Made by a program: the position numbers and the translations under genes. A DNA stretch of 34,489 nt, taken from positions 1-34,489 of the IMG/VR virus record IMGVR_UViG_2671180921_000023. One strand, written 5' to 3'. The notes beneath the pieces were generated by a model. The model was not told where the DNA came from and ran no database searches. It saw only the letters and a list, made by a program, of their open reading frames with translations. Source of the stretch: a virus. Lineage: Duplodnaviria > Heunggongvirae > Uroviricota > Caudoviricetes. Positions 19,440-29,016 of this stretch are shown here, in pieces (position 1 is the stretch's first letter; each line of letters begins with the position of its first letter).

Positions 19440-21182
19440 ATGATTCAGGACGCATTCATCAGGCTGCGGGCAAAACAGCTTTACTGGCAGGGCTACCCGC
19501 CCGCTGAAATATCGCGGCTGATGGGTATCAGTCAGAACACGATTTATTCGTGGAAAAAGCGCGACGGATGGGATGAAACGCCGCCCGTGGAGCGGGTCAC
19601 GCAGTCGATTGATGCGCGACTGGTTCAGCTGACCTCAAAAGCTGAAAAGAGCGGCGGTGATTTTAAGGAAATCGACCTGCTGACACGCCAGCTCGCAAAA
19701 CTGAATGACAACAGGGGCGGAGCGGAAAAAAGCCCGCGAAAACGAAAGCTGAAAAACCATTTTTCCGAATCGCAGGTTGCCGCACTGCGCGAACACATCA
19801 CCGGTCAACTGGCAGAGCATCAGAGACGCTGGTATGAGGCACTGGACGTCTGCCGTCGTGCCGGTGTTGATATTCGCATCATTGTGAAATCCCGACAGAT
19901 AGGCGCGACCTGGTATTTTGCGCAGGAGGCACTGCTGCGTGCGCTGGATGAGAGCGTGAAATATCCGTACCAGCGAAACCAGATTTTTTTGTCAGCCTCA
20001 CGCCGTCAGGCCTTTCAGTTTAAAAGCGTGATTCAGAAGGCGGCACAGGCTGTGGACGTCGAGCTGAAAGGCGGTGACAAAATTGTGCTTTCTAACGGCG
20101 CGGAACTGCATTTTCTGGGGACATCCGCCGCGACTGCGCAGTCCTATACGGGCAATCTGTATTTTGACGAATTTTTCTGGGTGTCGAACTTCATCACGCT
20201 GCGCAAGGTCGCAGGCGCGATGGCCACGCTGAATGGCCTGACGCAGACCTACTTTTCCACGCCGTCATCGGAGATGCACGAGGCGTTTCAGTTCTGGAAC
20301 GGCGCGCGGTGGAATGCCGGGCGACCACGCAGTGAGCGCCGGGAGATTGATGTGTCCCATCATGCTCTGAAGAGTGGGGTGCTGTGCCCCGACAGCGCGT
20401 GGCGACAAATCGTGACGATTCAGGATGCGGTGGACCTGGGCTGGACGCTCACCAGTATCGACAAAATCCGCAACATGAACTCGCCGGATGAGTTCCGCAA
20501 TCTCTACATGTGCGAGTTTGTCAGCGACGGCGAATCCGCCTTCGACCTTAATGCCCTGCTGGGCTGTGGTGTGGACGGCTATGATGAGTGGAATGACTGG
20601 AAACCGTTCGCAGCACGTCCGGTGGGTAATCGTCCGGTGTGGATTGGCTACGACGCTAACGGCAGCAGCGGTAACGGCGACAGCGGGGCGCTGTCTGTTG
20701 TTGTTCCGCCTGCTGTCAGGGGCGGCAAATTCCGCACGGTGGAGACGTTACAGGTGCAGGGGCTGGAATTTGAAGAGCAGGCCCGTGTGATTGAGCAGTT
20801 CACGCACAAATACAACGTCCAGCACATTGGTATCGACGTGACCGGCGGTAACGGTGAGGCGGTGTACCAGATAGTGCGGCGGTTCTGGCCTGCCGCCGTG
20901 CCGTACACGTTCACACTGGCATCCAAACGCGCGCTTGTGCTGAAGATGTTGCAGATTATTCGTGCGGGGCGCTGGGAGTATGACCGGGGCGAACGTGAGC
21001 TGGTCAGGGCATTCAACGCTGTGCGCAAGGCAAAAACGGCGGGTGGGGCAATAACGTATGAAACAGACCGCACACGCGGCGTGAACCACGGCGACCTCGC
21101 GTGGGCAACCATGCTTGCCGTCATTAACGAGCCGCTGGGCGATGAGGACGGTGCTACAGGAATGCGGGTGATTGAGTTCTGA
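19440..21182 (+). CDS. P: Terminase large (ATPase) subunit gpP
   Basis: P2 gpP-like. ATG 19440 preceded by AGGAGG; the ORF-track start at 19428 is a GTG inside the RBS. Confidence 0.9.
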   Translation: MIQDAFIRLRAKQLYWQGYPPAEISRLMGISQNTIYSWKKRDGWDETPPVERVTQSIDARLVQLTSKAEKSGGDFKEIDLLTRQLAKLNDNRGGAEKSPRKRKLKNHFSESQVAALREHITGQLAEHQRRWYEALDVCRRAGVDIRIIVKSRQIGATWYFAQEALLRALDESVKYPYQRNQIFLSASRRQAFQFKSVIQKAAQAVDVELKGGDKIVLSNGAELHFLGTSAATAQSYTGNLYFDEFFWVSNFITLRKVAGAMATLNGLTQTYFSTPSSEMHEAFQFWNGARWNAGRPRSERREIDVSHHALKSGVLCPDSAWRQIVTIQDAVDLGWTLTSIDKIRNMNSPDEFRNLYMCEFVSDGESAFDLNALLGCGVDGYDEWNDWKPFAARPVGNRPVWIGYDANGSSGNGDSGALSVVVPPAVRGGKFRTVETLQVQGLEFEEQARVIEQFTHKYNVQHIGIDVTGGNGEAVYQIVRRFWPAAVPYTFTLASKRALVLKMLQIIRAGRWEYDRGERELVRAFNAVRKAKTAGGAITYETDRTRGVNHGDLAWATMLAVINEPLGDEDGATGMRVIEF

Positions 21183-22225
21183 TGAAAAAACAAAAACGAA
21201 AATATTCGCGCCGCGATGACGGCGTGGCGCTGGCAGAGGCACTGCGCCGCCAGCCGTCGTTAAGCGCCTTCTCGTTCGACGGCCCTTACGATGCGCACGC
21301 ACTCGACCTGCTGGATAACGCATACTGTCTGAGTAACGGCAGATACTACGAAACGCCCGTTGACTGGTACGGACTGGCGCGGGCATCCCGGCAGACCTCG
21401 TGGCACCAGTCGGCGCTGTACTTCAAGCGGAATGCCCTTCTGGGCTGCTTCATTCCGCACCGGCTGTTGTCCCGGCAGGCGTTCTCCGCCTTTGCGCTGG
21501 ACTGGTTTGTGTTCGGGAATGCGTTTCTTGAACTGCGCACCAACAGGCTGGGCGGAAAGCTGGAACTGCGGCACGCGCTGGCGAAGTACACCCGCCGAGG
21601 TGTGGAACCGGATGTGTACTGGTTTGTGCAGACGGGGGAGCAGGATCACGAGTTCCGTCAGGGGCGCGTCTGTCACGTCATGAATCCCGACATCAACCAG
21701 GAAGTTTACGGGATGCCGGAATACCTCGGCGGCCTGCTGTCTGCCAGTCTGTCTCACTCGGCGGACCGCTTCCGCAAACTCTACTATGACAACGGTTCAC
21801 ACGCAGGCTGCATCATTTACGTGGGGGCTGCACAGGTTGACCGCGAAAGCATGCAGGCACTCGAAAACGCATTACAGGGCGCAAGAGGCGGCGGGGCATT
21901 CAAAAACCTGCTGCTCCAGGCACCGAACGGCGGGAAGGACGGCGTGCAGATCCTGCCGTTTCAGCAGATCACCGCACGGGATGAGTTCATCAACGTGAAG
22001 ACCGCCTCACGTGATGATGTGCTGGCCGCTCACCGCGTACCGCCACAGCTGATGGGCGCAATGCCTGGTGGGGCCGGTTCTTTTGGTGATGTGGAGAAGG
22101 CGGCAAGAGTGTTCGCAATCAACGAACTGATCCCCGTCATGGAGGCGATGAAACACGTCAATGACTGGCTGGGTGAGGAGGTGATCCGCTTTAATCCCTA
22201 CGCACTGCTTGATGCGTCAGCCTGA
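21182..22225 (+). CDS. Q: Portal (capsid vertex) protein gpQ
   Basis: 347 aa, P2 gpQ-like; ATG overlaps the P stop. Confidence 0.9.
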   Translation: MKKQKRKYSRRDDGVALAEALRRQPSLSAFSFDGPYDAHALDLLDNAYCLSNGRYYETPVDWYGLARASRQTSWHQSALYFKRNALLGCFIPHRLLSRQAFSAFALDWFVFGNAFLELRTNRLGGKLELRHALAKYTRRGVEPDVYWFVQTGEQDHEFRQGRVCHVMNPDINQEVYGMPEYLGGLLSASLSHSADRFRKLYYDNGSHAGCIIYVGAAQVDRESMQALENALQGARGGGAFKNLLLQAPNGGKDGVQILPFQQITARDEFINVKTASRDDVLAAHRVPPQLMGAMPGGAGSFGDVEKAARVFAINELIPVMEAMKHVNDWLGEEVIRFNPYALLDASA

Positions 22226-22251
22226 CGCGCTCCGCTTGTCTGCTGCTTCGC

Positions 22252-22276
22252 CGGGGCATAAAAAATTTATGCCCCG
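22252..22276. repeat. Near-perfect 25-bp palindrome immediately after Q (cggggcataaaaaatttatgccccg)
   Basis: Perfect inverted arms ggggcataaa/tttatgcccc; no T-run follows, so it may be a protein-binding site rather than a terminator. Confidence 0.5.
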
Positions 22277-22597
22277 ACTCACCAGCTCCGGTGTGTCACG
22301 CACCAGGCATCTCAGGGATCTACAGGTTGAATAACCTGTCAGCACACGCCGCACCAAAGCGCATCACAGGGCGTGTGATGCATCAGCCCATACTTCACAC
22401 ACAACCAATAAAACATCGCGTCAGGGGCGCAATCAGCCGCATTTCTGGCGATTTCTGGGGATGCTTTCAGACCCCAAATTGCGGGCTGTTCCCCCGGCAC
22501 CCGCGCGCAACAAAAACGCGTTTTTTTGTGCACGCACGGATCCTCGACGGATCCAGCCGCTACGCGGGCTTAATGGCAAAAAATATGGCTGAAAAAA

Positions 22598-22624
22598 TTG
22601 TGCAAATTTGTGCACTATTGTGCA
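22598..22624. repeat. Three direct TTGTGCA repeats at exact 10-bp spacing; candidate protein-binding array in the presumed cos region
   Basis: TTGTGCA at 22598, 22608 and 22618; a fourth copy at 22526-22532. Lies in the convergent gap downstream of Q where P2-family cos is expected. Confidence 0.4.
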
Positions 22625-22664
22625 GCAGGGTGATGTGTGATTATCGCCCTGGTTTGTCGAGGAT

Positions 22665-23204
22665 CTAATAATCTTCTGTCTCCTGCCACGAGACTTTTCC
22701 GCCTGCCTTTATGATGGCTCGCTCAACATCCCGTTCGTATCGCAAAGGCTGGAATACGCCGTTAATGAAATACTCCTTTGGGTCCGGGATCGATACGGTA
22801 AATTTGTCATTCTCTGGTTTTGGTATTGGTGAGACTGGATGCTCGTTTTTGGCAAGTTTTTTTATGACTCCCTCGTATTTTTCTTTTGTACATTGCATCG
22901 CCTCTTCAAAAGAAAGCGCTTTGTTACGCATTAACACGGCGTACTTTAGTGCATCCTGTGCTTTCTGGAATTTAAGTGCATAGTCAGTGGCGATTTTTTC
23001 CAGTTCAGCAGCCCGCCTTCGAAGCCCTTCAATCTCACCATTGCGGGCGATGAGGTTGCAGCACATTCTTTCATTCTCATCCAGCAACGCCAGCACAACC
23101 GATGGTGTCACCTGTTCATGGAAAATATCCGCATCATATCCCCAGTCATCATGTATTGCCTGCTCTGCCGCTTCACGCAGTGCCTGATAGTCAATCTTGC
23201 TCAT
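22665..23204 (-). CDS. Hypothetical phage protein, possibly Ead/Ea22-like
   Basis: 179 aa; N-terminus MSKIDYQALREAAE and motif PSVVLALLDE. Last gene of the accessory operon; 4-nt overlap with the upstream gene. Confidence 0.45.
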   Translation of the reverse strand: MSKIDYQALREAAEQAIHDDWGYDADIFHEQVTPSVVLALLDENERMCCNLIARNGEIEGLRRRAAELEKIATDYALKFQKAQDALKYAVLMRNKALSFEEAMQCTKEKYEGVIKKLAKNEHPVSPIPKPENDKFTVSIPDPKEYFINGVFQPLRYERDVERAIIKAGGKVSWQETEDY

Positions 23205-23725
23205 TGGATGACTCCTTTGTGTTGCGTCAGCTCTTCCTGTGCCTGCATCATGCGATTGACCTGAACGCGTGTGCGTCGAACGGAAAAAACAAACAGATTC
23301 AAAAGGCGGCGCATCTCTTTGTCCTCATGTCGCGCATGACGGATAAAGGCAAGTCGGTAGAACTCGGATTCGGCAGCGCGTTGAATCAACGACAGAGCAA
23401 AGTGAAGTGCGGGTCTGGTGCATTTTGCACATCTGGCGGCAAGCTCTGGCATCAATCTCTTAACGAAGGTGTTTTGCACCGCTTTGTTGAGACGCACCTG
23501 CATCCGAAGCGCAAAGGCCAGCGAACGCATGAGCCGGATTGCGTCGGGCAACGGCAGATAGATCATGCTGGCGGTTTTGGGTAGCGGATGAATCATTTTT
23601 ACGGAGATGCGATTGCGCAGCGTTCGAAACATCGTGCTCCCGACAACAGACTCCACGGAGATGGGGCAGGGAGCCATACCAACCCGCAACGCGTTCGTCA
23701 TGAACAGATATTCATCTTTTTTCAT
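23201..23725 (-). CDS. Hypothetical protein (174 aa), accessory operon
   Basis: Start chosen at ATG 23725 (MKKDEYLF) with AAGGA RBS. A GTG start at 23788 would abut the upstream stop. No recognisable domain. Confidence 0.4.
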   Translation of the reverse strand: MKKDEYLFMTNALRVGMAPCPISVESVVGSTMFRTLRNRISVKMIHPLPKTASMIYLPLPDAIRLMRSLAFALRMQVRLNKAVQNTFVKRLMPELAARCAKCTRPALHFALSLIQRAAESEFYRLAFIRHARHEDKEMRRLLNLFVFSVRRTRVQVNRMMQAQEELTQHKGVIQ

Positions 23726-23788
23726 CGTGTTTTCCTTAGTGCGGGGCGACAGTGCCCCGATAAAATTAAAAGCCGTCAAACTCGTCAC

Positions 23789-24121
23789 TCATCTTCCTAC
23801 TCCCTGCGTTCCTTGTTTTTCGCGGATAACTTCGTTGCACAGTTCCACACACTCGTCGCAGATGAAAACGTCGTCCCCGGCAATTAACTGTTTGACGGCG
23901 TGCTGTGGTTTCTTGCAGAAGCTGCAATAAAGCGTTTGCCTGACAGATACGGATGATGTGTAGGATGTCAGCCTCGCGATGTCGTTCTTGCGGCGCAACA
24001 TCACACGGCAGCACTCAACCAGTTTCTCCGGGGCGATTTCTTCCTCTGTGGCGAGCGCCTCCAGTCGTTCGAGTATGTGGAAGGCTTTTTCCTCGGTAAT
24101 TGCAGAATGCGATGTGGTCAT
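23789..24121 (-). CDS. Small protein with a C-terminal ClpX-type C4 zinc-binding domain
   Basis: C-terminal [39 protein letters not shown] closely resembles the ClpX N-terminal zinc-binding domain. Start at ATG 24121 with AAGGAG RBS. Confidence 0.65.
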
Positions 24122-24132
24122 CTCTTTCTCCT

Positions 24133-24333
24133 TCAAAGTTCAGTGTGCTGACAGAGGTGTCCTTTGCGACAGACCAGGACGCTTCCCTTACTTGAGTCGG
24201 TGATTGTCACCGTGCCGTCATCGCACTGGACAACGATGACGGTGTTGCTCTTTTCCGTTGCGCAGTTCGGCGTGGTTGAATGCGCCAACGGAATGAAAAA
24301 CAGCGAAAAAAGTAATGTCAGTCTTTTCATCAT
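24133..24333 (-). CDS. Small secreted cysteine-containing protein (66 aa) with N-terminal signal peptide
   Basis: [19 protein letters not shown] signal-like N-terminus; short Cys-containing mature part; overlaps the start of the ClpX-ZBD gene. Confidence 0.4.
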
Positions 24334-24407
24334 GGATGCCTCATGCTTACTGTTCTGAAGGCATGACGCACTAAATAAAACAGTCCGCCATGCCTTATCA
24401 CGTCGCC

Positions 24408-24719
24408 TTATTCGGGGAATAAGGCCCTGATGTTTGCGGCCATCTGGCTGGGTGTCTGCACCTCTGGCGCAACCTGTACTTTGGGGCTTTCCGCCCTGAG
24501 CTGTGTCACGGGTAACGGCTCATCGTCAGCCCATGCAGCCAGCCGGTAAGCCTCTGCCGGATTCGTCTTCAGAAGTGCCAGCCCGGCCAGAAAAGCCACA
24601 CGTTGCCCGCTTTTGCGGGCTTCCGGTGTAAGGCTGTCCAGCCAGGCACATGCTTCGTTTTCGTTCTTGACTGCGGCTGGCTTCAGATAGAAACTTATCC
24701 GCCTGGTTGATGTTGTCAT
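24408..24719 (-). CDS. parR: ParR/StbB-like partition adaptor
   Basis: 103 aa, immediately downstream of parM; N-terminal RISFYLKPAAVKNE ... AFLAGLALL resembles plasmid R1 ParR. Confidence 0.65.
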   Translation of the reverse strand: MTTSTRRISFYLKPAAVKNENEACAWLDSLTPEARKSGQRVAFLAGLALLKTNPAEAYRLAAWADDEPLPVTQLRAESPKVQVAPEVQTPSQMAANIRALFPE

Positions 24720-24723
24720 TGGT

Positions 24724-25683
24724 TCACTCCCTGTTCATGTCATGGAGTCCATTAACCAGGGCAAACTGTGGCTCCGGTGTTGTGTGAATGTTTGCGTTGA
24801 GGCCGTAAGCGTCATGTACCGCCGGAGCCACAATCTCCGCCCCTCCACCGACAATCATCACCCGACCGTATCCCGAAAAGCCCGCCAGTGCGCGGATCAC
24901 GCGTTGTTTCAGTGTTTCTTCCTTTTCACGAATAACCGCCATCAGGCTGGCGTAATGCGCGTCATTGTGGATGTGCTGGCGCAGCCAGGCTTCATCGTGG
25001 CGATGTTCGATAATGGTATTGGCGATGTGGTGACTGGTACGCATACCGTTAGTGGCCATCACCGACAGTACGGCATCGGTCATCAGTGAAACGCCTACGT
25101 GTGGATCGCAAAATACCTGGCTGATGCCTGCCAGTTGCCCCTGAACCTTTGCCACATCCAGCGTGGTTCCGCCTAAATCCACAATCAGCAGGGATTCAAA
25201 CGGACTCATGTCAGCCAGTGCTTTAAAACCAGCCGGAATGGATTCAGGCATAACCCGTACGTTACGGATAGTGAATGCTTTTCCGTTCTGGTACGCCACC
25301 GGGCGCATGACGTTTGCTTTTTTGCGGTTGATGTTGGCCATGTCCGGCTGTGCGTTTGTGTCGAAATACTCGCTCAGTGGCAGGGTGACAACCACATCCA
25401 CTTCCTGTGGTGTGATGCCTGATTTGACCAGCGCGTGATGAATGGCAATGACATTCACATCGCTGTACTGGTATTGCGTGTCGGTCGTCTGGACAAAGCG
25501 ATCGCTGACCGGATCAAAACCATAGCGCACGCCATCAAGCATGTAGTTCGCGGGCTGCGTGCCACCGAACGGCGCAGACCATTCCGACTTGAAGCTGTTC
25601 GGGCTGATGGCGTTGCGGCGTTCGCCGTTCTCAGTCCATGCCAGCTTGATGTTGGTGGAGCCGTCATCGATACAAATTTTCAT
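24724..25683 (-). CDS. parM: ParM/StbA actin-like segregation ATPase
   Basis: 319 aa with ParM phosphate-binding motifs: IDDGSTNIKL, FTIRNVRVMPESIPAG, LLIVDLGGTTLDV, VMIVGGGAE. Co-linear with R1 ParM. Confidence 0.85.
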   Translation of the reverse strand: MKICIDDGSTNIKLAWTENGERRNAISPNSFKSEWSAPFGGTQPANYMLDGVRYGFDPVSDRFVQTTDTQYQYSDVNVIAIHHALVKSGITPQEVDVVVTLPLSEYFDTNAQPDMANINRKKANVMRPVAYQNGKAFTIRNVRVMPESIPAGFKALADMSPFESLLIVDLGGTTLDVAKVQGQLAGISQVFCDPHVGVSLMTDAVLSVMATNGMRTSHHIANTIIEHRHDEAWLRQHIHNDAHYASLMAVIREKEETLKQRVIRALAGFSGYGRVMIVGGGAEIVAPAVHDAYGLNANIHTTPEPQFALVNGLHDMNRE

Positions 25684-25714
25684 GTCGCTTTTCCTTATGT
25701 TGATTAATTAATCG

Positions 25715-25827
25715 TTTACGGGATTCTGAAATCCCGTTTTTGCCTGTTTTGTGCGCGCTTCATATATCGCTGCGCGTTTTTTGCTCATTTACGGGATTCG
25801 TGAGTCCCGTTTCTGTCTGTTTTTTGT
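25715..25827. repeat. Two 40-bp direct repeats, each a hairpin plus T-run; candidate parC centromere/promoter or origin-associated element
   Basis: Copy 1 at 25715-25753 (intergenic, upstream of parM); copy 2 at 25788-25827 (inside the last codons of gene A). Each has an ACGGGATT-type 8-bp stem. Confidence 0.5.
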
Positions 25828-28600
25828 TTCCGCTGGTCAGGCCACCCCGCAGCAGGTCTGCTTTGCGGCTGGCGCGTTCAGTGGTTTCACTGATTCTCTG
25901 TGCGTGCTCTGCGTCGCGGATGGCGCGCAGCATGTCAGAAAGCACGGTAACGGGTGTTTTCATGGTGTTCTGGTCCTGCTGAAGTGTGGATGCCAGGCGT
26001 GCGGCGGCTTCAGGGTCTGATGCCCCCAGCTGTGCCAGATAGCTGGCGACCGGGTTATGGCGGATCTCCGTGCTGCTTACGCCATGATTACGGCTCAGGC
26101 GCTGCCAGAGCTGCGTGATTCGGCTGTCCGGGCGGGTATCCGGTTTGCGTACAATTTCAAATCCCTGCGGTGCAATGATGCTGCCGTCAACGTACAGACT
26201 GCCGCCCCGTAACAGGTGCTGCATCTGTTGTTCACCGATATGCAGGCCGAGAGATTCAGCAGACTCCCGCCATTCTTTAGCGAGTAATTCGTGGTTATCA
26301 GGCAAAGGCCGCTGCTGTTTGCGGCTCTGTGTCCAGCTCTGCATTTCATCACTGCTGTTTTTTGCCTGTTTGTCACGAAGCGAACGCATCAGCGCCCGGC
26401 GTTCGTGCCGTTTCAGTGAGCGCATCCATTCGTTCACTTCAACGCCGTCAGGGAGCTGCGGCCACGGTGCTGGCCGTTCTTCCGGCTGTTCTGTCCCGTT
26501 GTTGTCCGTTTCCTGTACACGGGGACAGTTATTGCCACGAGTCCAAGGGGCGGCAGGGCCGCCCTGAAGGTCAAAACCATTTTCGCGGGAGCTGTCTTCC
26601 GCTTCCGGTTTACGTCTTACCAGCTTCCAGTTATCCGGGTGCGTGCACACACGGGAGGATTCCCCGATGAGTGGTGACCAGATCCCGTAAATCTGTACAC
26701 TCTGTTCGCCGTAATCGTTCAGCTCATCTGCGAGGTCGTAGGCGGTGCGAATCAGGTAGTCTTTACGTGGAACAAGTACTCCGCCCTGTTTCTCAATGTA
26801 GGTGGCAAAACATCCGGCATCAGCGGCAGCAAGAACCGCATCCATTGCGTCATCCTTCAGCCGTTGTGGGCCTTCCGGGTTGCGTGCCATCTGGCTGGCA
26901 AGGCGGCGCAGTTCACGCCATACCTGACGGGAGGGGATACCAAAGAACTGGAACTGGCGGACCCGGTGAAGGCGCGCCCAGCCGATGGCGCGCTCCACGC
27001 TCTCGGCCATTGATTTTCCGGTTTCGTGGTCAACGCGTGGCTTGCCCGTTTTCGGGTCGATGCCATCCACGGCGCGGCTATCCAGGTTCTTTCCGATGTA
27101 GGTGGCGATGTAGCTGGTTGGCGTGCCTTTCGAACCGTCGACGTACTCTGCCTTAAAGCGCGGAGTAATATCATTGCCCAGCTCGTGGCGGTCTTCCTGA
27201 ATGGCAATATCGCAGACGTGGGACACGATGGTTTCAATCTCGTCCGGATGTGCAAAGACCATCATATGCCAGTGCACCGTGCCGTCATGGTGAGGCTCCA
27301 CCGTGCGGATGCCATACCAGCGCAGACCGTCGCGGTTCAGTTTTTTGCGGACCGCCGCAAAAAACGTGTTAACCAGGTAATCGCTGGAGTCGCGCATGGT
27401 GGCTCCGTTCCATTTGGGGTTCGGATGACCGTTCTCCGTTGTTGCGTGGTATTTTGACGGGCAGGTGACAGTCAGAAACACCGCTCTGTCGCCACGGGCT
27501 TCGGCCAGAAGTTCCAGCCCCTTCATGGTGGCCATCATTTCTGCCTTACGGTGAACCGGGTTACTTACTCCCGCGTAATACACTGTCTCGAGATCAATCG
27601 TGAACCCGTCTTCATTTTCCAGCATGAAACTTTTCAGGAAATCGCGTGTTTTCTCGCGCTGTGCGCGAAACTCGCTTAACGCGTCCTGGCTCAGATAGGG
27701 TGATGTTTTTCTGGAAACCAGACAGGCGGCGCGGAGTTGTTCTTCTCTCCACTCGCAACGTAACAGCCACAGTTTGCGTTTCCACCATTCCGCACAGGTC
27801 AGGCGAAGGATTGCGCCCGGCAGCAGCTCCGTGTCCGGTTCGTTCCTCCGGTCTTTGTCTGTTGTCAGTGCGTCATAATGTGGAGGCATGGCGTGCAGGT
27901 GTAACGCCATGCGGGCCAGCATCTGATACGCCTTCAGCGTTACATCCATGGTCAGTTCGCCATCAGTAGCGCCAAAGCCATCGCAGAGTTTTTCGAAGGT
28001 GCTGCTGAACATCGCCGCCGTCATGGTGGCCAGCGTCTGTATCTGGTGTTTGTTGAGCTGCGGCAGGTAAAGCAAATCGTCCAGGCGTTCGCGTCCGGCA
28101 AGGGAGCGATAACCCGGTGTCAGCCAGCGGTGATCGGTGCGGTCCAGACGTTCGAATATTTTGCGCAGGGTTCCGCGCGCGTAGCGTTCAGCCTGCCAGC
28201 TCTTTTTGCCTTTCTGGCGATCGGCTTCCTGTTTTTTGCGCAGGAAAGAGAGGTGGCGGCTCAGAGGTTCACGCAGATAAACGGGAAGCACCTTCAGTGT
28301 GGCAAAAGCACGGGCCACCGGGTCTTGTTCTGTTGCCTGACGCTTGCTGATGATGCTTTGTGCCAGCTTTTCACGCTGTCCGGCTTCCTCAAGGGATGCC
28401 ATGAGTTTTTTACCCATGGCGGATTGTGCGAAAAAGGCTTCCTCCTTCGCTTCCTGTTCTTCCTGGGCCTTTTTGTCTGCCTCAAGGTAGTAACGGATGG
28501 CGCGTTGCAGGTCGGTTTCAGTTTCCTGCCTGCACTCCGTAAATCTGGCCGGATCAATGGCTGGCCGCGGTTCATTCCAGCTCCATGCAAACTCACTCAT
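25760..28600 (-). CDS. A: Replication initiation protein gpA (rolling-circle HUH endonuclease)
   Basis: About 946 aa, P2 gpA-like with HUH motif (VHWHMMVF). Start at ATG 28600 overlaps the upstream stop (ATGA coupling). Confidence 0.85.
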   Translation of the reverse strand: MSEFAWSWNEPRPAIDPARFTECRQETETDLQRAIRYYLEADKKAQEEQEAKEEAFFAQSAMGKKLMASLEEAGQREKLAQSIISKRQATEQDPVARAFATLKVLPVYLREPLSRHLSFLRKKQEADRQKGKKSWQAERYARGTLRKIFERLDRTDHRWLTPGYRSLAGRERLDDLLYLPQLNKHQIQTLATMTAAMFSSTFEKLCDGFGATDGELTMDVTLKAYQMLARMALHLHAMPPHYDALTTDKDRRNEPDTELLPGAILRLTCAEWWKRKLWLLRCEWREEQLRAACLVSRKTSPYLSQDALSEFRAQREKTRDFLKSFMLENEDGFTIDLETVYYAGVSNPVHRKAEMMATMKGLELLAEARGDRAVFLTVTCPSKYHATTENGHPNPKWNGATMRDSSDYLVNTFFAAVRKKLNRDGLRWYGIRTVEPHHDGTVHWHMMVFAHPDEIETIVSHVCDIAIQEDRHELGNDITPRFKAEYVDGSKGTPTSYIATYIGKNLDSRAVDGIDPKTGKPRVDHETGKSMAESVERAIGWARLHRVRQFQFFGIPSRQVWRELRRLASQMARNPEGPQRLKDDAMDAVLAAADAGCFATYIEKQGGVLVPRKDYLIRTAYDLADELNDYGEQSVQIYGIWSPLIGESSRVCTHPDNWKLVRRKPEAEDSSRENGFDLQGGPAAPWTRGNNCPRVQETDNNGTEQPEERPAPWPQLPDGVEVNEWMRSLKRHERRALMRSLRDKQAKNSSDEMQSWTQSRKQQRPLPDNHELLAKEWRESAESLGLHIGEQQMQHLLRGGSLYVDGSIIAPQGFEIVRKPDTRPDSRITQLWQRLSRNHGVSSTEIRHNPVASYLAQLGASDPEAAARLASTLQQDQNTMKTPVTVLSDMLRAIRDAEHAQRISETTERASRKADLLRGGLTSGNKKQTETGLTNPVNEQKTRSDI

Positions 28601-29016
28601 GGCTGGTATCCCGTCACGCGCTGCCACTCCTGCGAGAAGAGGGTGGAAAGGCGGTTAAACTCAGCGGTGTATTCACTCAGCGAGGCACACCCGCCAGCAG
28701 TGTGATGCGCCAGCATTGCCGCAAATACGGAGGCCGGGGAGTCGTAATACGCCAGCAGTGATTCGCCGTGTGGTGTCAGGCAGTGCAACGCCAGCCCGTG
28801 TGGTGTCAGGCAGTGCAACGCCAGCCCGTGTGGTGTGAAGTCCACGCGGTAGCAGTCGTCTACTGTGAAATAAAGGGTGTCCGCATTCTCCGGTTTTGTG
28901 GTGCGTGCTCTGTTGTCACGACCGCGGATGTAGAGATCAAATAATCCCTGAAGAACGGGAGCCAGACGGGTGTCCTGTGTGCGCACCCATCTTGTGAAGT
29001 CATGAGCGTCAATCAT
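28597..29016 (-). CDS. Hypothetical early protein (139 aa) with an internal in-frame tandem duplication
   Basis: Protein repeat TPHGLALHCL x2 plus a partial third, encoded by a perfect 30-bp tandem repeat; translationally coupled to A. Confidence 0.5.
   Translation of the reverse strand: MIDAHDFTRWVRTQDTRLAPVLQGLFDLYIRGRDNRARTTKPENADTLYFTVDDCYRVDFTPHGLALHCLTPHGLALHCLTPHGESLLAYYDSPASVFAAMLAHHTAGGCASLSEYTAEFNRLSTLFSQEWQRVTGYQP
28767..28836. repeat. Perfect 30-bp tandem direct repeat (2 full copies plus a 10-bp partial) inside a CDS
   Basis: cgtgtggtgtcaggcagtgcaacgccagcc repeated at 28767-28796 and 28797-28826, then cgtgtggtgt. Confidence 0.9.

What the first reader, a model, noticed from the sequence alone, without database searches (positions are those of the whole stretch)
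23789..24121. Phage-encoded free-standing ClpX zinc-binding-domain mimic
A 110-aa protein carries at its C-terminus a near-canonical copy of the ClpX N-terminal C4 zinc-binding domain ([11 protein letters not shown] ... [15 protein letters not shown]), fused to an unrelated acidic helical N-terminus. In ClpX this domain dimerises and docks adaptors and substrates. A free ZBD from a prophage could act as a decoy or dominant-negative that shields phage proteins from ClpXP, or redirect ClpX. This is a hypothesis; the domain match is the observation.
Basis: partly seen in the sequence, partly recalled or inferred. Interest (0 to 1): 0.65.

Follow-up and report, generated by a model that had tools for sequence, protein, structure and literature searches.

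The report
Phage-borne copy of ClpX zinc domain
A P2-family prophage of E. coli carries a small, conserved gene whose product is a free-standing copy of the substrate and adaptor docking domain of the host ClpX protease motor, joined to a phage-specific helical hairpin; it probably competes with ClpX for its partners, but nobody has tested this.

Summary
Window 23789-24121 (minus strand) is a 110-aa gene with a good ribosome-binding site. Residues 63-102 are a true ClpX-type C4 zinc-binding domain (ZBD): Pfam E=4.7e-18, 66% identical to E. coli ClpX, identical Cys spacing, and a predicted fold 0.5 A from the crystal structure. Residues 1-60 form a two-helix hairpin found nowhere except attached to this ZBD.

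The window is a P88-like (P2-family) prophage. The gene lies in the gpA-portal cargo hotspot, after a ParM/StbB partition cassette. The family is restricted to E. coli and Salmonella temperate phages that carry partition functions (P88-like, P1/D6-like, SSU5-like). NCBI already names it "ClpX C4-type zinc finger protein", and it is phrog_6797 (function unknown). I found no functional study.

The Zn ligands, the hydrophobic core and the F16/I46 docking pocket are conserved. Purified ZBD added in trans is known to inhibit ClpXP delivery in vitro. The decoy reading is therefore the best-supported mechanism, but it remains inference (about 0.4). Retargeting of ClpX, or a role unrelated to ClpX, is not excluded. 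This is a real, uncharacterised and directly testable family of moderate interest.

The parts
23789..24121 (-). 110-aa gene for the free-standing ClpX-ZBD protein (phrog_6797; NCBI name 'ClpX C4-type zinc finger protein')
   Evidence: ORF list and sequence. phrog_6797 matches full length at E=2.9e-49. The exact sequence occurs in 35 public E. coli contigs. Pairwise dN/dS against distinct orthologues is 0.38-0.49.
24128..24132 (-). Shine-Dalgarno AGGAG, 6 nt before the ATG; only 11 nt separate the stop codon of the upstream 66-aa ORF from this ATG
   Evidence: Read directly from the sequence.
23942..24121 (-). N-terminal domain (residues 1-60): a two-helix hairpin specific to this family (H10-26 acidic, H31-52 basic) plus a low-confidence Ser/Thr-rich linker (residues 53-62)
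   Evidence: AF2 model. An exhaustive profile search of 1.84 billion representative proteins found 11 hits; every recognisable relative is this family, full-length or truncated, and the other three are repeat or low-complexity matches. No relation to any PDB sequence and no informative fold match. Residues E11 K12 R19 L20 E21 L23 A24 T25 E26 E27 I29 L34 L42 R44 K45 D47 L51 are invariant. dN/dS is 0.20-0.47.
23816..23935 (-). ClpX-type C4 zinc-binding domain (residues 63-102; Cys66, Cys69, Cys88, Cys91)
   Evidence: Pfam PF06689 E=4.7e-18. PDB ClpX ZBD E about 1e-15. Foldseek: 2ds5_A at rmsd 0.5 A, 71% identity over 38 columns. Per-position conservation.
24133..24333 (-). Context: upstream 66-aa ORF with a signal-peptide-like N-terminus, apparently in the same operon
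   Evidence: phrog_20764 E=2.5e-11. Conserved in P2-like relatives.
24408..25683 (-). Context: ParM (24724-25683) and StbB/ParR-like (24408-24719) partition cassette, immediately upstream on the same strand
   Evidence: Pfam StbA_N E=6.9e-82, ParM_N E=2.7e-65, Plasmid_stab_B E=1.4e-23.
25760..28627 (-). Context: replication protein gpA, the left border of the P2-type cargo hotspot
   Evidence: Pfam Phage_GPA E=1.9e-129. Hotspot defined in PMC9122126.
22665..23725 (-). Context: downstream genes, the orphan orf174 (23201-23725) and an Ead/Ea22-like gene (22665-23204)
   Evidence: orf174 has no Pfam, PHROG or PADLOC hit. Ead_Ea22 E=2.5e-14.
21182..22225 (+). Context: portal gpQ, the right border of the hotspot
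   Evidence: phrog_68 portal E=6.3e-146.

Best explanation
The gene encodes a soluble two-domain protein: a family-specific helical hairpin followed by a bona fide ClpX N-terminal zinc-binding domain that temperate enterobacterial phages captured from an enterobacterial clpX. It has no AAA+ motor, so it cannot unfold anything itself. The most likely mechanism has three steps. (1) The ZBD folds around Zn and dimerises as in ClpX. (2) Its conserved hydrophobic pocket (the F16/I46 equivalents, F68 and V98) binds the same ligands as the host ZBD: the XB-type tails of the adaptors SspB and RssB, trigger factor, and N-domain-dependent substrates of the lambda-O / MuA class. (3) By titrating these ligands away from ClpX, it selectively dampens N-domain-dependent ClpXP degradation and remodelling, while direct pore substrates are largely spared. 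The conserved N-terminal hairpin either adds oligomerisation and avidity or tethers the decoy to a second, conserved partner. The beneficiary is probably a ClpXP-labile phage, plasmid-maintenance or antitoxin protein, or the lysogen itself through sigmaS stabilisation. Shown here: domain identity, fold, conservation pattern, genomic context and distribution. Inferred: dimerisation, ligand binding, competition and the identity of the beneficiary.
For: - Domain identity and fold are established.
- There is no AAA+ module: the TIGR00382 clpX model scores 49 bits against a cutoff of 371.
- Across 35 unique family ZBDs, the four Cys, F16, K19, G30, I35 and E38 are invariant. L12, S15, V24, I28, V33, V40, C43, N44 and I47 are kept in 89-97% of sequences, D37 and Q21 in 86%, and I46 is I or V in 31 of 35.
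- F16 and I46 form the pocket used by trigger factor and lambda O, and the same hydrophobic region binds SspB and RssB (PMC7804408).
- Purified ZBD added in trans at 5-20 uM inhibits RssB-mediated sigmaS turnover by ClpXP (PMC7226468 Fig. 1d).
- Divergent subfamilies (P88, P0033, P0019) are 76-80% identical to E. coli ClpX but only 51-76% identical to the window protein. The ClpX-like state is therefore ancestral and retained.
- The gene is under purifying selection overall (dN/dS 0.38-0.49). It travels without a fixed partner among three phage groups, as expected for a self-sufficient modulator.
- Bare 65-aa ZBDs occur in unrelated phages, for example just after the replication protein P of Pseudomonas phage phi1 (phrog_12435).
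Against: - There is no direct evidence of binding or of any effect on ClpXP.
- dN/dS for the ZBD (0.40-0.67) is higher than for the N-domain (0.20-0.47). In the nearest pair almost all ZBD changes are non-synonymous (Nd 6.8 against Sd 1.2, small numbers).
- Surface positions G18, E23, P31, S32, L42 and D45, which differ little among the five or so ClpX ZBD sequences seen here, vary freely in the family. A pure mimic of an invariant host surface would be expected to vary less.
- The N-terminal hairpin is the more constrained half and carries many invariant charged residues. A simple decoy does not need such a domain.
- No promoter was detected, so the timing of expression is unknown.
Confidence: 0.4

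Rival explanations
1. Retargeting or pseudo-N-domain model. The protein attaches to ClpX, either through its conserved N-terminal hairpin or by ZBD heterodimerisation, and supplies an extra ZBD of altered specificity. ClpXP is thereby redirected to new substrates, such as host defence proteins, a competitor's proteins or the phage repressor, rather than being inhibited.
For: The N-terminal hairpin is more constrained than the ZBD and has many invariant charged surface residues, which suggests a fixed partner. Positions around the ZBD ligand surface (L42, D45, I46, G18, E23) diversify, with raised dN/dS, as expected for evolving specificity.
Against: The N-domain has no detectable similarity to any known ClpX-binding module or adaptor. 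The ZBD dimer of ClpX is described as a stable dimer (own knowledge, Wojtyra 2003 and Donaldson 2003, not re-read here), so subunit exchange is not expected. I know of no precedent.
Confidence: 0.2
2. Function unrelated to ClpX. The captured treble-clef zinc domain serves only as a dimerisation or protein-binding module in a small regulator, for example of the lysis-lysogeny decision, of the plasmid state, or of the neighbouring Ead/Ea22-type proteins. It would have no effect on ClpXP.
Against: The oldest splits in the family still retain 76-80% identity to E. coli ClpX, including the docking-pocket residues. That is more than a generic zinc scaffold needs. The immediate neighbour is not conserved across phage groups: orf174 in the window, Ea22-like in L004, a 112-aa protein in P88, none in D6.
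Confidence: 0.25
3. Prophage-encoded defence (superinfection exclusion). Expressed in the lysogen, the free ZBD blocks ClpX N-domain functions that incoming phages need, for example MuA remodelling in Mu-like phages.
For: The gene sits in the gpA-gpQ hotspot, which in P2-like phages is a reservoir of anti-phage systems (PMC9122126). zf-C4_ClpX is listed among the cargo of that hotspot in the paper's supplementary table.
Against: There is no PADLOC hit. The same paper notes that the hotspot also carries non-defence cargo such as the partition system, next to which this gene sits. In P1-like and SSU5-like elements the gene lies in arrays of small accessory genes, not in a defence island. No lysogen-type promoter was detected.
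Confidence: 0.1
4. Decaying remnant of a captured clpX 5' end, with no function.
For: Truncated and frameshifted copies exist (P0034, P0036, P0037, P0038). dN/dS is not very low.
Against: The intact 105-120-aa architecture is kept across three phage lineages and down to about 47% overall protein identity (window against P88). Both domains have invariant residues, all four Cys are kept, and dN/dS is below 1.
Confidence: 0.03

Closest known systems
[quoted passage not shown]
   Same: Same C-x2-C-x18-C-x2-C treble-clef domain. 66% identical here, up to 80% in other family members. The predicted fold lies 0.5 A from the crystal structure. The F16/I46 docking pocket and the hydrophobic core are retained.
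   Different: It is free-standing, with no linker or AAA+ motor. It sits at the C-terminus of the protein rather than the N-terminus. It is fused to an unrelated helical hairpin. Surface positions G18, E23, P31, S32, L42 and D45 are variable.
Recombinant ClpX ZBD used in trans as a competitive inhibitor in vitro (PMC7226468; also Wojtyra 2003 and Thibault 2006, from own knowledge)
   Same: A ZBD detached from the motor. In vitro it blocks adaptor-dependent delivery (RssB/sigmaS) to ClpXP.
   Different: That is a laboratory fragment. This is a natural, phage-encoded gene with an additional conserved domain, and its activity is untested.
Phage and host modulators of AAA+ proteases: T4 PinA and T7 Gp4.5 (Lon inhibitors), lambda RexB (protects lambda O from ClpXP), and the anti-adaptors IraD, IraM and IraP (own knowledge; IraD in PMC6546054, listed)
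   Same: The proposed outcome is the same: a small accessory protein that stabilises selected protease substrates.
   Different: There is no sequence or fold relationship. Those proteins bind the protease or the adaptor through unrelated folds, whereas this one would work by copying the protease's own docking domain.
Bare ZBD-only proteins of about 65 aa in other phages (phrog_12435, phrog_5259; e.g. Pseudomonas phage phi1 ALY08156.1, PP9W2)
   Same: A stand-alone ClpX-type ZBD encoded by a temperate phage, often near replication genes.
   Different: They lack the N-terminal hairpin, share only about 46% identity in the ZBD, and infect a different host clade. They are equally uncharacterised.

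Membership tests
Pfam PF06689 zf-C4_ClpX (ClpX C4-type zinc finger) | HMM score above the gathering threshold (27 bits) | tested here: met
   65.2 bits, E=4.7e-18, profile positions 2-39 of 39.
Pfam PF06689 zf-C4_ClpX (ClpX C4-type zinc finger) | Four Zn-ligand cysteines with ClpX spacing C-x2-C-x18-C-x2-C | tested here: met
   C66, C69, C88 and C91 have the same spacing as E. coli C14, C17, C36 and C39. They are invariant in 35 unique family sequences.
Pfam PF06689 zf-C4_ClpX (ClpX C4-type zinc finger) | Treble-clef fold: beta-hairpin followed by a C-terminal helix | tested here: met
   In the AF2 model residues 63-109 have pLDDT 82-89 up to residue 100, falling to 64 at the C-terminal tail. 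Foldseek matches 2ds5/2ds6/2ds8 at rmsd 0.5-0.6 A over 38 residues. This is a prediction, not an experiment.
Pfam PF06689 zf-C4_ClpX (ClpX C4-type zinc finger) | Zn binding and constitutive dimerisation | not testable with these tools
The only indirect support is conservation of the hydrophobic beta2 and helix positions V33, I35, V40 and I47.
Pfam PF06689 zf-C4_ClpX (ClpX C4-type zinc finger) | Hydrophobic docking pocket for adaptors and substrates (F16, I46) | tested here: met
   F16 is kept in 35 of 35 sequences and I46 is I or V in 31 of 35. The role of the pocket comes from PMC7804408. Actual binding was not tested.
ClpX AAA+ unfoldase (TIGR00382 / NF003745) | Full-length equivalog score; AAA+ module with Walker motifs and a ClpP-binding loop | tested here: not met
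   49.2 bits against a cutoff of 370.75, with only model positions 7-51 matched. The protein is 110 aa. It is not a ClpX.
phrog_6797 (phage protein family, function unknown) | Full-length profile match | tested here: met
   E=2.9e-49, residues 1-103 against profile positions 1-103 of 107.
Known ClpXP adaptors and anti-adaptors (SspB, RssB, IraD/M/P) | Sequence or fold homology to one of these families | tested here: not met
   No such hit in Pfam or NCBIfam. The N-domain has no PDB relative by sequence or by fold.
Known anti-phage defence systems (PADLOC-DB v2) | Match to a defence-protein model | tested here: not met
   No hit at E<=0.1 for this gene or its five neighbours.
Cargo of the P2-like gpA-gpQ hotspot (Rousset et al. 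2022) | Location between replication gene A and portal gene Q of a P2-like prophage | tested here: met
   gpA lies at 25760-28627 and the portal at 21182-22225. The hotspot definition and the 'StbA + Plasmid_stab_B + zf-C4_ClpX' loci come from the paper's supplement.

The most novel reading that the evidence does not exclude
Temperate phages with a plasmid-type lifestyle (P88-like phages with ParMR, P1/D6-like and SSU5-like phage-plasmids) have stolen the docking domain of the host ClpX motor and deploy it as a natural mimic. It would either sequester ClpX adaptors and N-domain-dependent substrates, protecting a labile phage, plasmid or antitoxin protein or raising sigmaS in the lysogen, or it would plug into ClpXP through the conserved N-terminal hairpin to reprogramme substrate choice. 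The ZBD surface would be diversifying in an arms race. To my knowledge this would be the first described virus-encoded decoy of an AAA+ protease recognition domain.
Probability: 0.35. Interest if true: 0.75.

Novelty: new variant of a known kind. Interest (0 to 1): 0.55.

Why it matters
ClpXP controls the stability of sigmaS, SOS proteins, antitoxins (P1 Phd), replication initiators (lambda O) and the transposase MuA (own knowledge). All adaptor-dependent delivery goes through the small N-terminal ZBD. A natural, phage-encoded free ZBD would be a selective brake on N-domain-dependent proteolysis, supplied by the mobile element.

If true, it would do three things:
- Add a new principle, domain theft and mimicry of the protease's own receptor, to the short list of phage anti-protease strategies.
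- Offer a genetically encoded tool to separate adaptor-dependent from direct ClpXP degradation in vivo.
- Possibly explain how phage-plasmids stabilise maintenance or antitoxin proteins.

The hypothesis can be tested directly with existing ClpXP assays.

Tried and rejected
- **SOS-controlled antirepressor (186 Tum-like).** A search for a LexA box (CTGT-N8-ACAG, up to 1 mismatch) found no more matches than chance (14 against 12 expected) and none upstream of the operon. Rejected.
- **Own promoter or terminator.** The consensus scan found no sigma70-like promoter in 22200-25800 and no minus-strand terminator between stbB and the gene. Timing of expression stays open.
- **'Mini-ClpX' idea.** phmmer printed a weak alignment of residues 23-58 to the ClpX small AAA+ subdomain (score -0.7). 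A profile of the N-domain found nothing in ClpX or elsewhere in the PDB (best E=3.3, a helicase). Rejected.
- **Weak Pfam hits.** RIF2_ASCE and DUF4461 both scored below threshold. Ignored.
- **Conserved partner gene.** orf174 and the 176-aa neighbour in the SSU5-like element are unrelated (E=5.7), and the neighbour differs between phage groups. No obligatory partner exists; the only recurring feature is proximity to Ead/Ea22-superfamily genes.
- **Defence system.** No PADLOC hit.
- **afdb50 fold library** was unavailable.
- **GTDB species representatives** contained no copy.
- **Eight literature searches** for a characterised phage-encoded free ZBD found none.
- **The NCBI name 'carboxylate--amine ligase'** has no support from any domain search. 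I regard it as a propagated misannotation.

Full report

Yes. The ORF at window 23789-24121 lies on the minus strand. It starts with an ATG at 24121, preceded by AGGAG at 24128-24132 (6-nt spacer), and begins 11 nt after the stop codon of an upstream 66-aa ORF. The 110-aa product matches Pfam zf-C4_ClpX over residues 65-101 with E=4.7e-18 (65.2 bits, cutoff 27). The NCBIfam ClpX equivalog models match only through their first ~50 positions, at 49 bits against a cutoff of ~370. The protein is therefore a ZBD without a ClpX motor.

phmmer against all PDB sequences finds the E. coli ClpX ZBD structures 2DS5 and 1OVX at E about 1e-15. Identity over the 41-residue core is 27/41 (66%). The spacing C-x2-C-x18-C-x2-C is identical to ClpX C14/C17/C36/C39.

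An AlphaFold2 model built on 18 family sequences has mean pLDDT 76. It shows helices at 10-26 and 31-52, a disordered linker at 53-62, and a beta-hairpin plus helix at 63-109. The last part superposes on 2DS5, 2DS6 and 2DS8 at 0.5-0.6 A over 38 residues. One small correction to the finding: the N-terminus is only mildly acidic overall. Helix 1 is acidic and helix 2 is basic.

**2. Where is it?**

The window is an almost complete P2-family prophage. It contains gpD, tail sheath, tape measure and tail fibre genes, the P2-type capsid and scaffold, terminase, portal, gpA, Cox and integrase. The closest phage records are Xuanwuvirus P88 and its relatives.

On the minus strand the gene order is:
- gpA (25760-28627)
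- ParM (24724-25683)
- StbB/ParR-like (24408-24719)
- a 66-aa protein that looks secreted (24133-24333)
- the ZBD gene
- an orphan 174-aa ORF (23201-23725)
- an Ead/Ea22-like gene (22665-23204)

The portal follows on the plus strand (21182-22225).

This gpA-to-portal interval is the cargo hotspot of P2-like phages described by Rousset et al. 2022. They report that it holds many anti-phage systems and also, in about a quarter of P2-like phages, a putative partition system (PMC9122126). Their supplementary table lists loci such as 'StbA + Plasmid_stab_B + zf-C4_ClpX + hypothetical...'. The gene has therefore been catalogued there, but not studied.

No PADLOC defence model matches the gene or its neighbours. 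No sigma70-like promoter, LexA box or minus-strand terminator separates the gene from the genes upstream. It looks co-transcribed with them, but its timing of expression is unknown.

**3. The family**

The full-length protein is phrog_6797, function unknown. The word-index homologue search found 31 clusters, all from Escherichia or Salmonella. They are named either 'ClpX C4-type zinc finger protein' or, without any support from domain searches, 'carboxylate--amine ligase'. The exact window sequence is present in 35 public E. coli contigs.

A profile of the N-terminal 60 residues alone was run against 1.84 billion representative proteins. It found only 11 hits. Eight are this same family: full-length hairpin-plus-ZBD proteins or truncated/frameshifted copies. 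The other three are repeat or low-complexity matches. The hairpin has no relative in PDB sequences and no informative structural neighbour. The two-domain architecture is thus a closed, narrow family.

P88 itself carries a divergent member at the same locus. It is about 47% identical overall by my rough count from the alignment, and tblastn gave 49% over residues 33-100.

In 5,426 complete E. coli genomes, copies at 84% nucleotide identity or more occur in 37. Of these, 35 are on 87-216 kb plasmids and 2 are on chromosomes. Annotated examples are the P1-like phage-plasmid D6 and an SSU5-like 110-kb element. Thirty-five IMG/VR loci sort into the same three backgrounds: P2-like with ParM/StbB, P1/D6-like, and SSU5-like. 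GTDB species representatives hold no copy. Every context recovered is therefore a temperate phage that carries plasmid-partition functions. This is a correlation, not a demonstrated link.

**4. Neighbours**

There is no obligatory partner gene. The gene downstream differs between contexts:
- orf174 in the window and its closest relatives
- an Ea22-like gene in other P2-like prophages (L004, L005)
- an unrelated 112-aa protein in P88
- nothing in D6
- a phrog_6026/phrog_368 protein in most phage-plasmid loci

.

The recurring theme is that the gene is embedded among modular Ead/Ea22-superfamily genes. The 119-aa variants (P0025-P0027) carry the N-terminus of the upstream Ea22-like gene (the 13-residue MKSEGLTPxQLAE start, differing at one position), which indicates recombination within these arrays.

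**5. What the conservation says**

Across 35 unique family ZBDs:
- The four cysteines, F16, K19, G30, I35 and E38 (E. coli numbering) are invariant.
- L12, S15, V24, I28, V33, V40, C43, N44 and I47 are kept in 89-97% of sequences, and D37 and Q21 in 86%.
- I46 is I or V in 31 of 35.
- G18, E23, R25, P31, S32, Y34, L42 and D45 are replaced or vary.

[quoted passage not shown] Trigger factor and lambda O need this pocket, and the same hydrophobic region binds SspB and RssB (PMC7804408).

Divergent subfamilies (P88, P0033, P0019) are 76-80% identical to E. coli ClpX but only 51-76% identical to the window protein. This is a star-like pattern: it indicates descent from an enterobacterial-type ClpX ZBD, with the ClpX-like state retained in the deep branches.

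Pairwise Nei-Gojobori estimates give dN/dS of 0.20-0.47 for the hairpin and 0.40-0.67 for the ZBD. In the nearest pair (97% nucleotide identity) the ZBD has 6.8 non-synonymous against 1.2 synonymous differences. The counts are small and the alternative C-terminal helix variants look mosaic, so this is a hint of diversification or recombination, not proof. The hairpin is the more constrained half and carries many invariant charged residues: E11, K12, R19, E21, T25, E26, E27, R44, K45 and D47.

**6. Mechanism**

Established knowledge: the ZBD is the docking platform of ClpX for adaptors and N-domain-dependent substrates. Purified ZBD added in trans at 5-20 uM inhibits RssB-mediated sigmaS degradation by ClpXP (PMC7226468, Fig. 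1d).

The phage protein has the ZBD, keeps its pocket and lacks a motor. The best-supported reading is therefore a trans-acting competitor (decoy) for ZBD ligands. It would selectively dampen adaptor- and N-domain-dependent ClpXP activity.

What is shown: domain identity, predicted fold, pocket conservation, origin, context and distribution. What is inferred: Zn binding, dimerisation, ligand binding, competition, and who benefits. Plausible beneficiaries, from general knowledge, include:
- ClpXP-labile replication or maintenance proteins of plasmid-state prophages
- antitoxins such as P1 Phd
- the lysogen itself, via sigmaS stabilisation

I put this reading at about 0.4.

The decoy model does not explain the strongly conserved hairpin or the variable ZBD surface. 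This keeps two rivals alive: a retargeting or pseudo-N-domain model (about 0.2), and a role unrelated to ClpX in which the zinc domain is only a dimerisation or binding scaffold within the Ea22-type gene arrays (about 0.25). A superinfection-exclusion role is suggested only by the hotspot address (about 0.1). A decaying remnant is very unlikely.

**7. Comparison with what is known**

The C-terminal domain is a member of Pfam PF06689, and every testable defining feature is met. The protein is not a ClpX, because the AAA+ module is absent (tested, not met). It is not related to any known adaptor, anti-adaptor or phage protease inhibitor.

Functionally, the nearest things are:
- the laboratory ZBD fragment used as a competitor
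- conceptually, phage and host protease modulators such as T4 PinA, T7 Gp4.5, lambda RexB and IraD/M/P (own knowledge), which use unrelated folds

Stand-alone 65-aa ZBDs without the hairpin exist in other phages. One example sits directly after replication protein P of Pseudomonas phage phi1 (phrog_12435). Free phage ZBDs are therefore a wider, equally uncharacterised phenomenon.

Eight full-text searches found no functional study of any of them. The held library is incomplete, so a paper in a subscription journal could have been missed.

**8. Verdict**

The finding is real. It is correctly described and already annotated by domain name in public databases, but it is functionally unexplored. 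I rate it a new variant of a known kind: a host protease recognition domain redeployed as a free-standing phage protein. The interest is moderate (0.55), because the hypothesis is specific, has in vitro precedent and can be tested with standard ClpXP assays. It would rise to about 0.75 if mimicry or retargeting were demonstrated.

Noticed in passing
window 24133-24333 (-): A 66-aa ORF with a signal-peptide-like start ([19 protein letters not shown]) and four cysteines, matching phrog_20764 (E=2.5e-11), lies directly upstream of the ZBD gene. In the close relative NZ_CP080223, PGAP instead annotates the overlapping opposite-strand 64-aa ORF (window 24164-24358 +), which is probably the wrong strand.
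   Followed up: partly
window 23201-23725 (-): An orphan 174-aa ORF with no Pfam, PHROG or PADLOC match. It is present only in the closest P2-like relatives (L007, L011, L012) and absent from L004/L005, where the Ea22-like gene follows the ZBD gene directly. It therefore looks like a recent insertion into the operon. A GC-rich hairpin (CGGGGC-actgtc-GCCCCG, at about 23745-23765) sits between the ZBD stop codon and its start.
   Followed up: partly
window 24408-25683 (-): A ParM/StbB (ParMR-type) plasmid partition cassette inside an integrase-bearing P2-like prophage. All other carriers of the ZBD family found here are phage-plasmids (P1/D6-like, SSU5-like), so the gene tracks elements that have partition functions.
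   Followed up: partly
L014 7300-8001 and 8270-9031; L008 4449-4979; P0025-P0027: In phage-plasmid loci the ZBD gene is flanked by modular Ead/Ea22-superfamily genes (phrog_368, phrog_6026). The 119-aa ZBD variants have acquired the N-terminus of the upstream Ea22-like gene (the MKSEGLTPxQLAE start, one position differing), which is evidence of recombination between adjacent genes.
   Followed up: partly
window about 24352-24392 (-), between stbB and the 66-aa ORF: An inverted repeat AAGGCATG-N23-CATGCCTT lies in the 74-nt intergenic spacer. It has no T-run, so it is not an obvious terminator. Its function is unknown.
   Followed up: no
window 25760-28627 (-): The gpA replication protein is 955 aa, which as I recall is considerably longer than P2 gpA (about 760 aa). 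The Phage_GPA domain covers only residues 194-518, and the C-terminal ~400 residues match separate PHROGs of unknown function (phrog_14885, phrog_14675).
   Followed up: no
database annotation (P88 AIZ95127.1, D6 YP_009914770.1, many NCBI records): Many records name the family 'carboxylate--amine ligase'. No domain search supports this name, and it looks like a propagated misannotation.
   Followed up: yes
L009 2504-2701 (Pseudomonas phage phi1) and other hits: Bare ZBD-only proteins of about 65 aa occur in D3-like Pseudomonas phages directly downstream of replication protein P. ZBD-like matches also occur in Caulobacter phage Cr30 and Pantoea phage PdC23. This suggests repeated, independent capture of the ClpX N-domain by phages.
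   Followed up: partly
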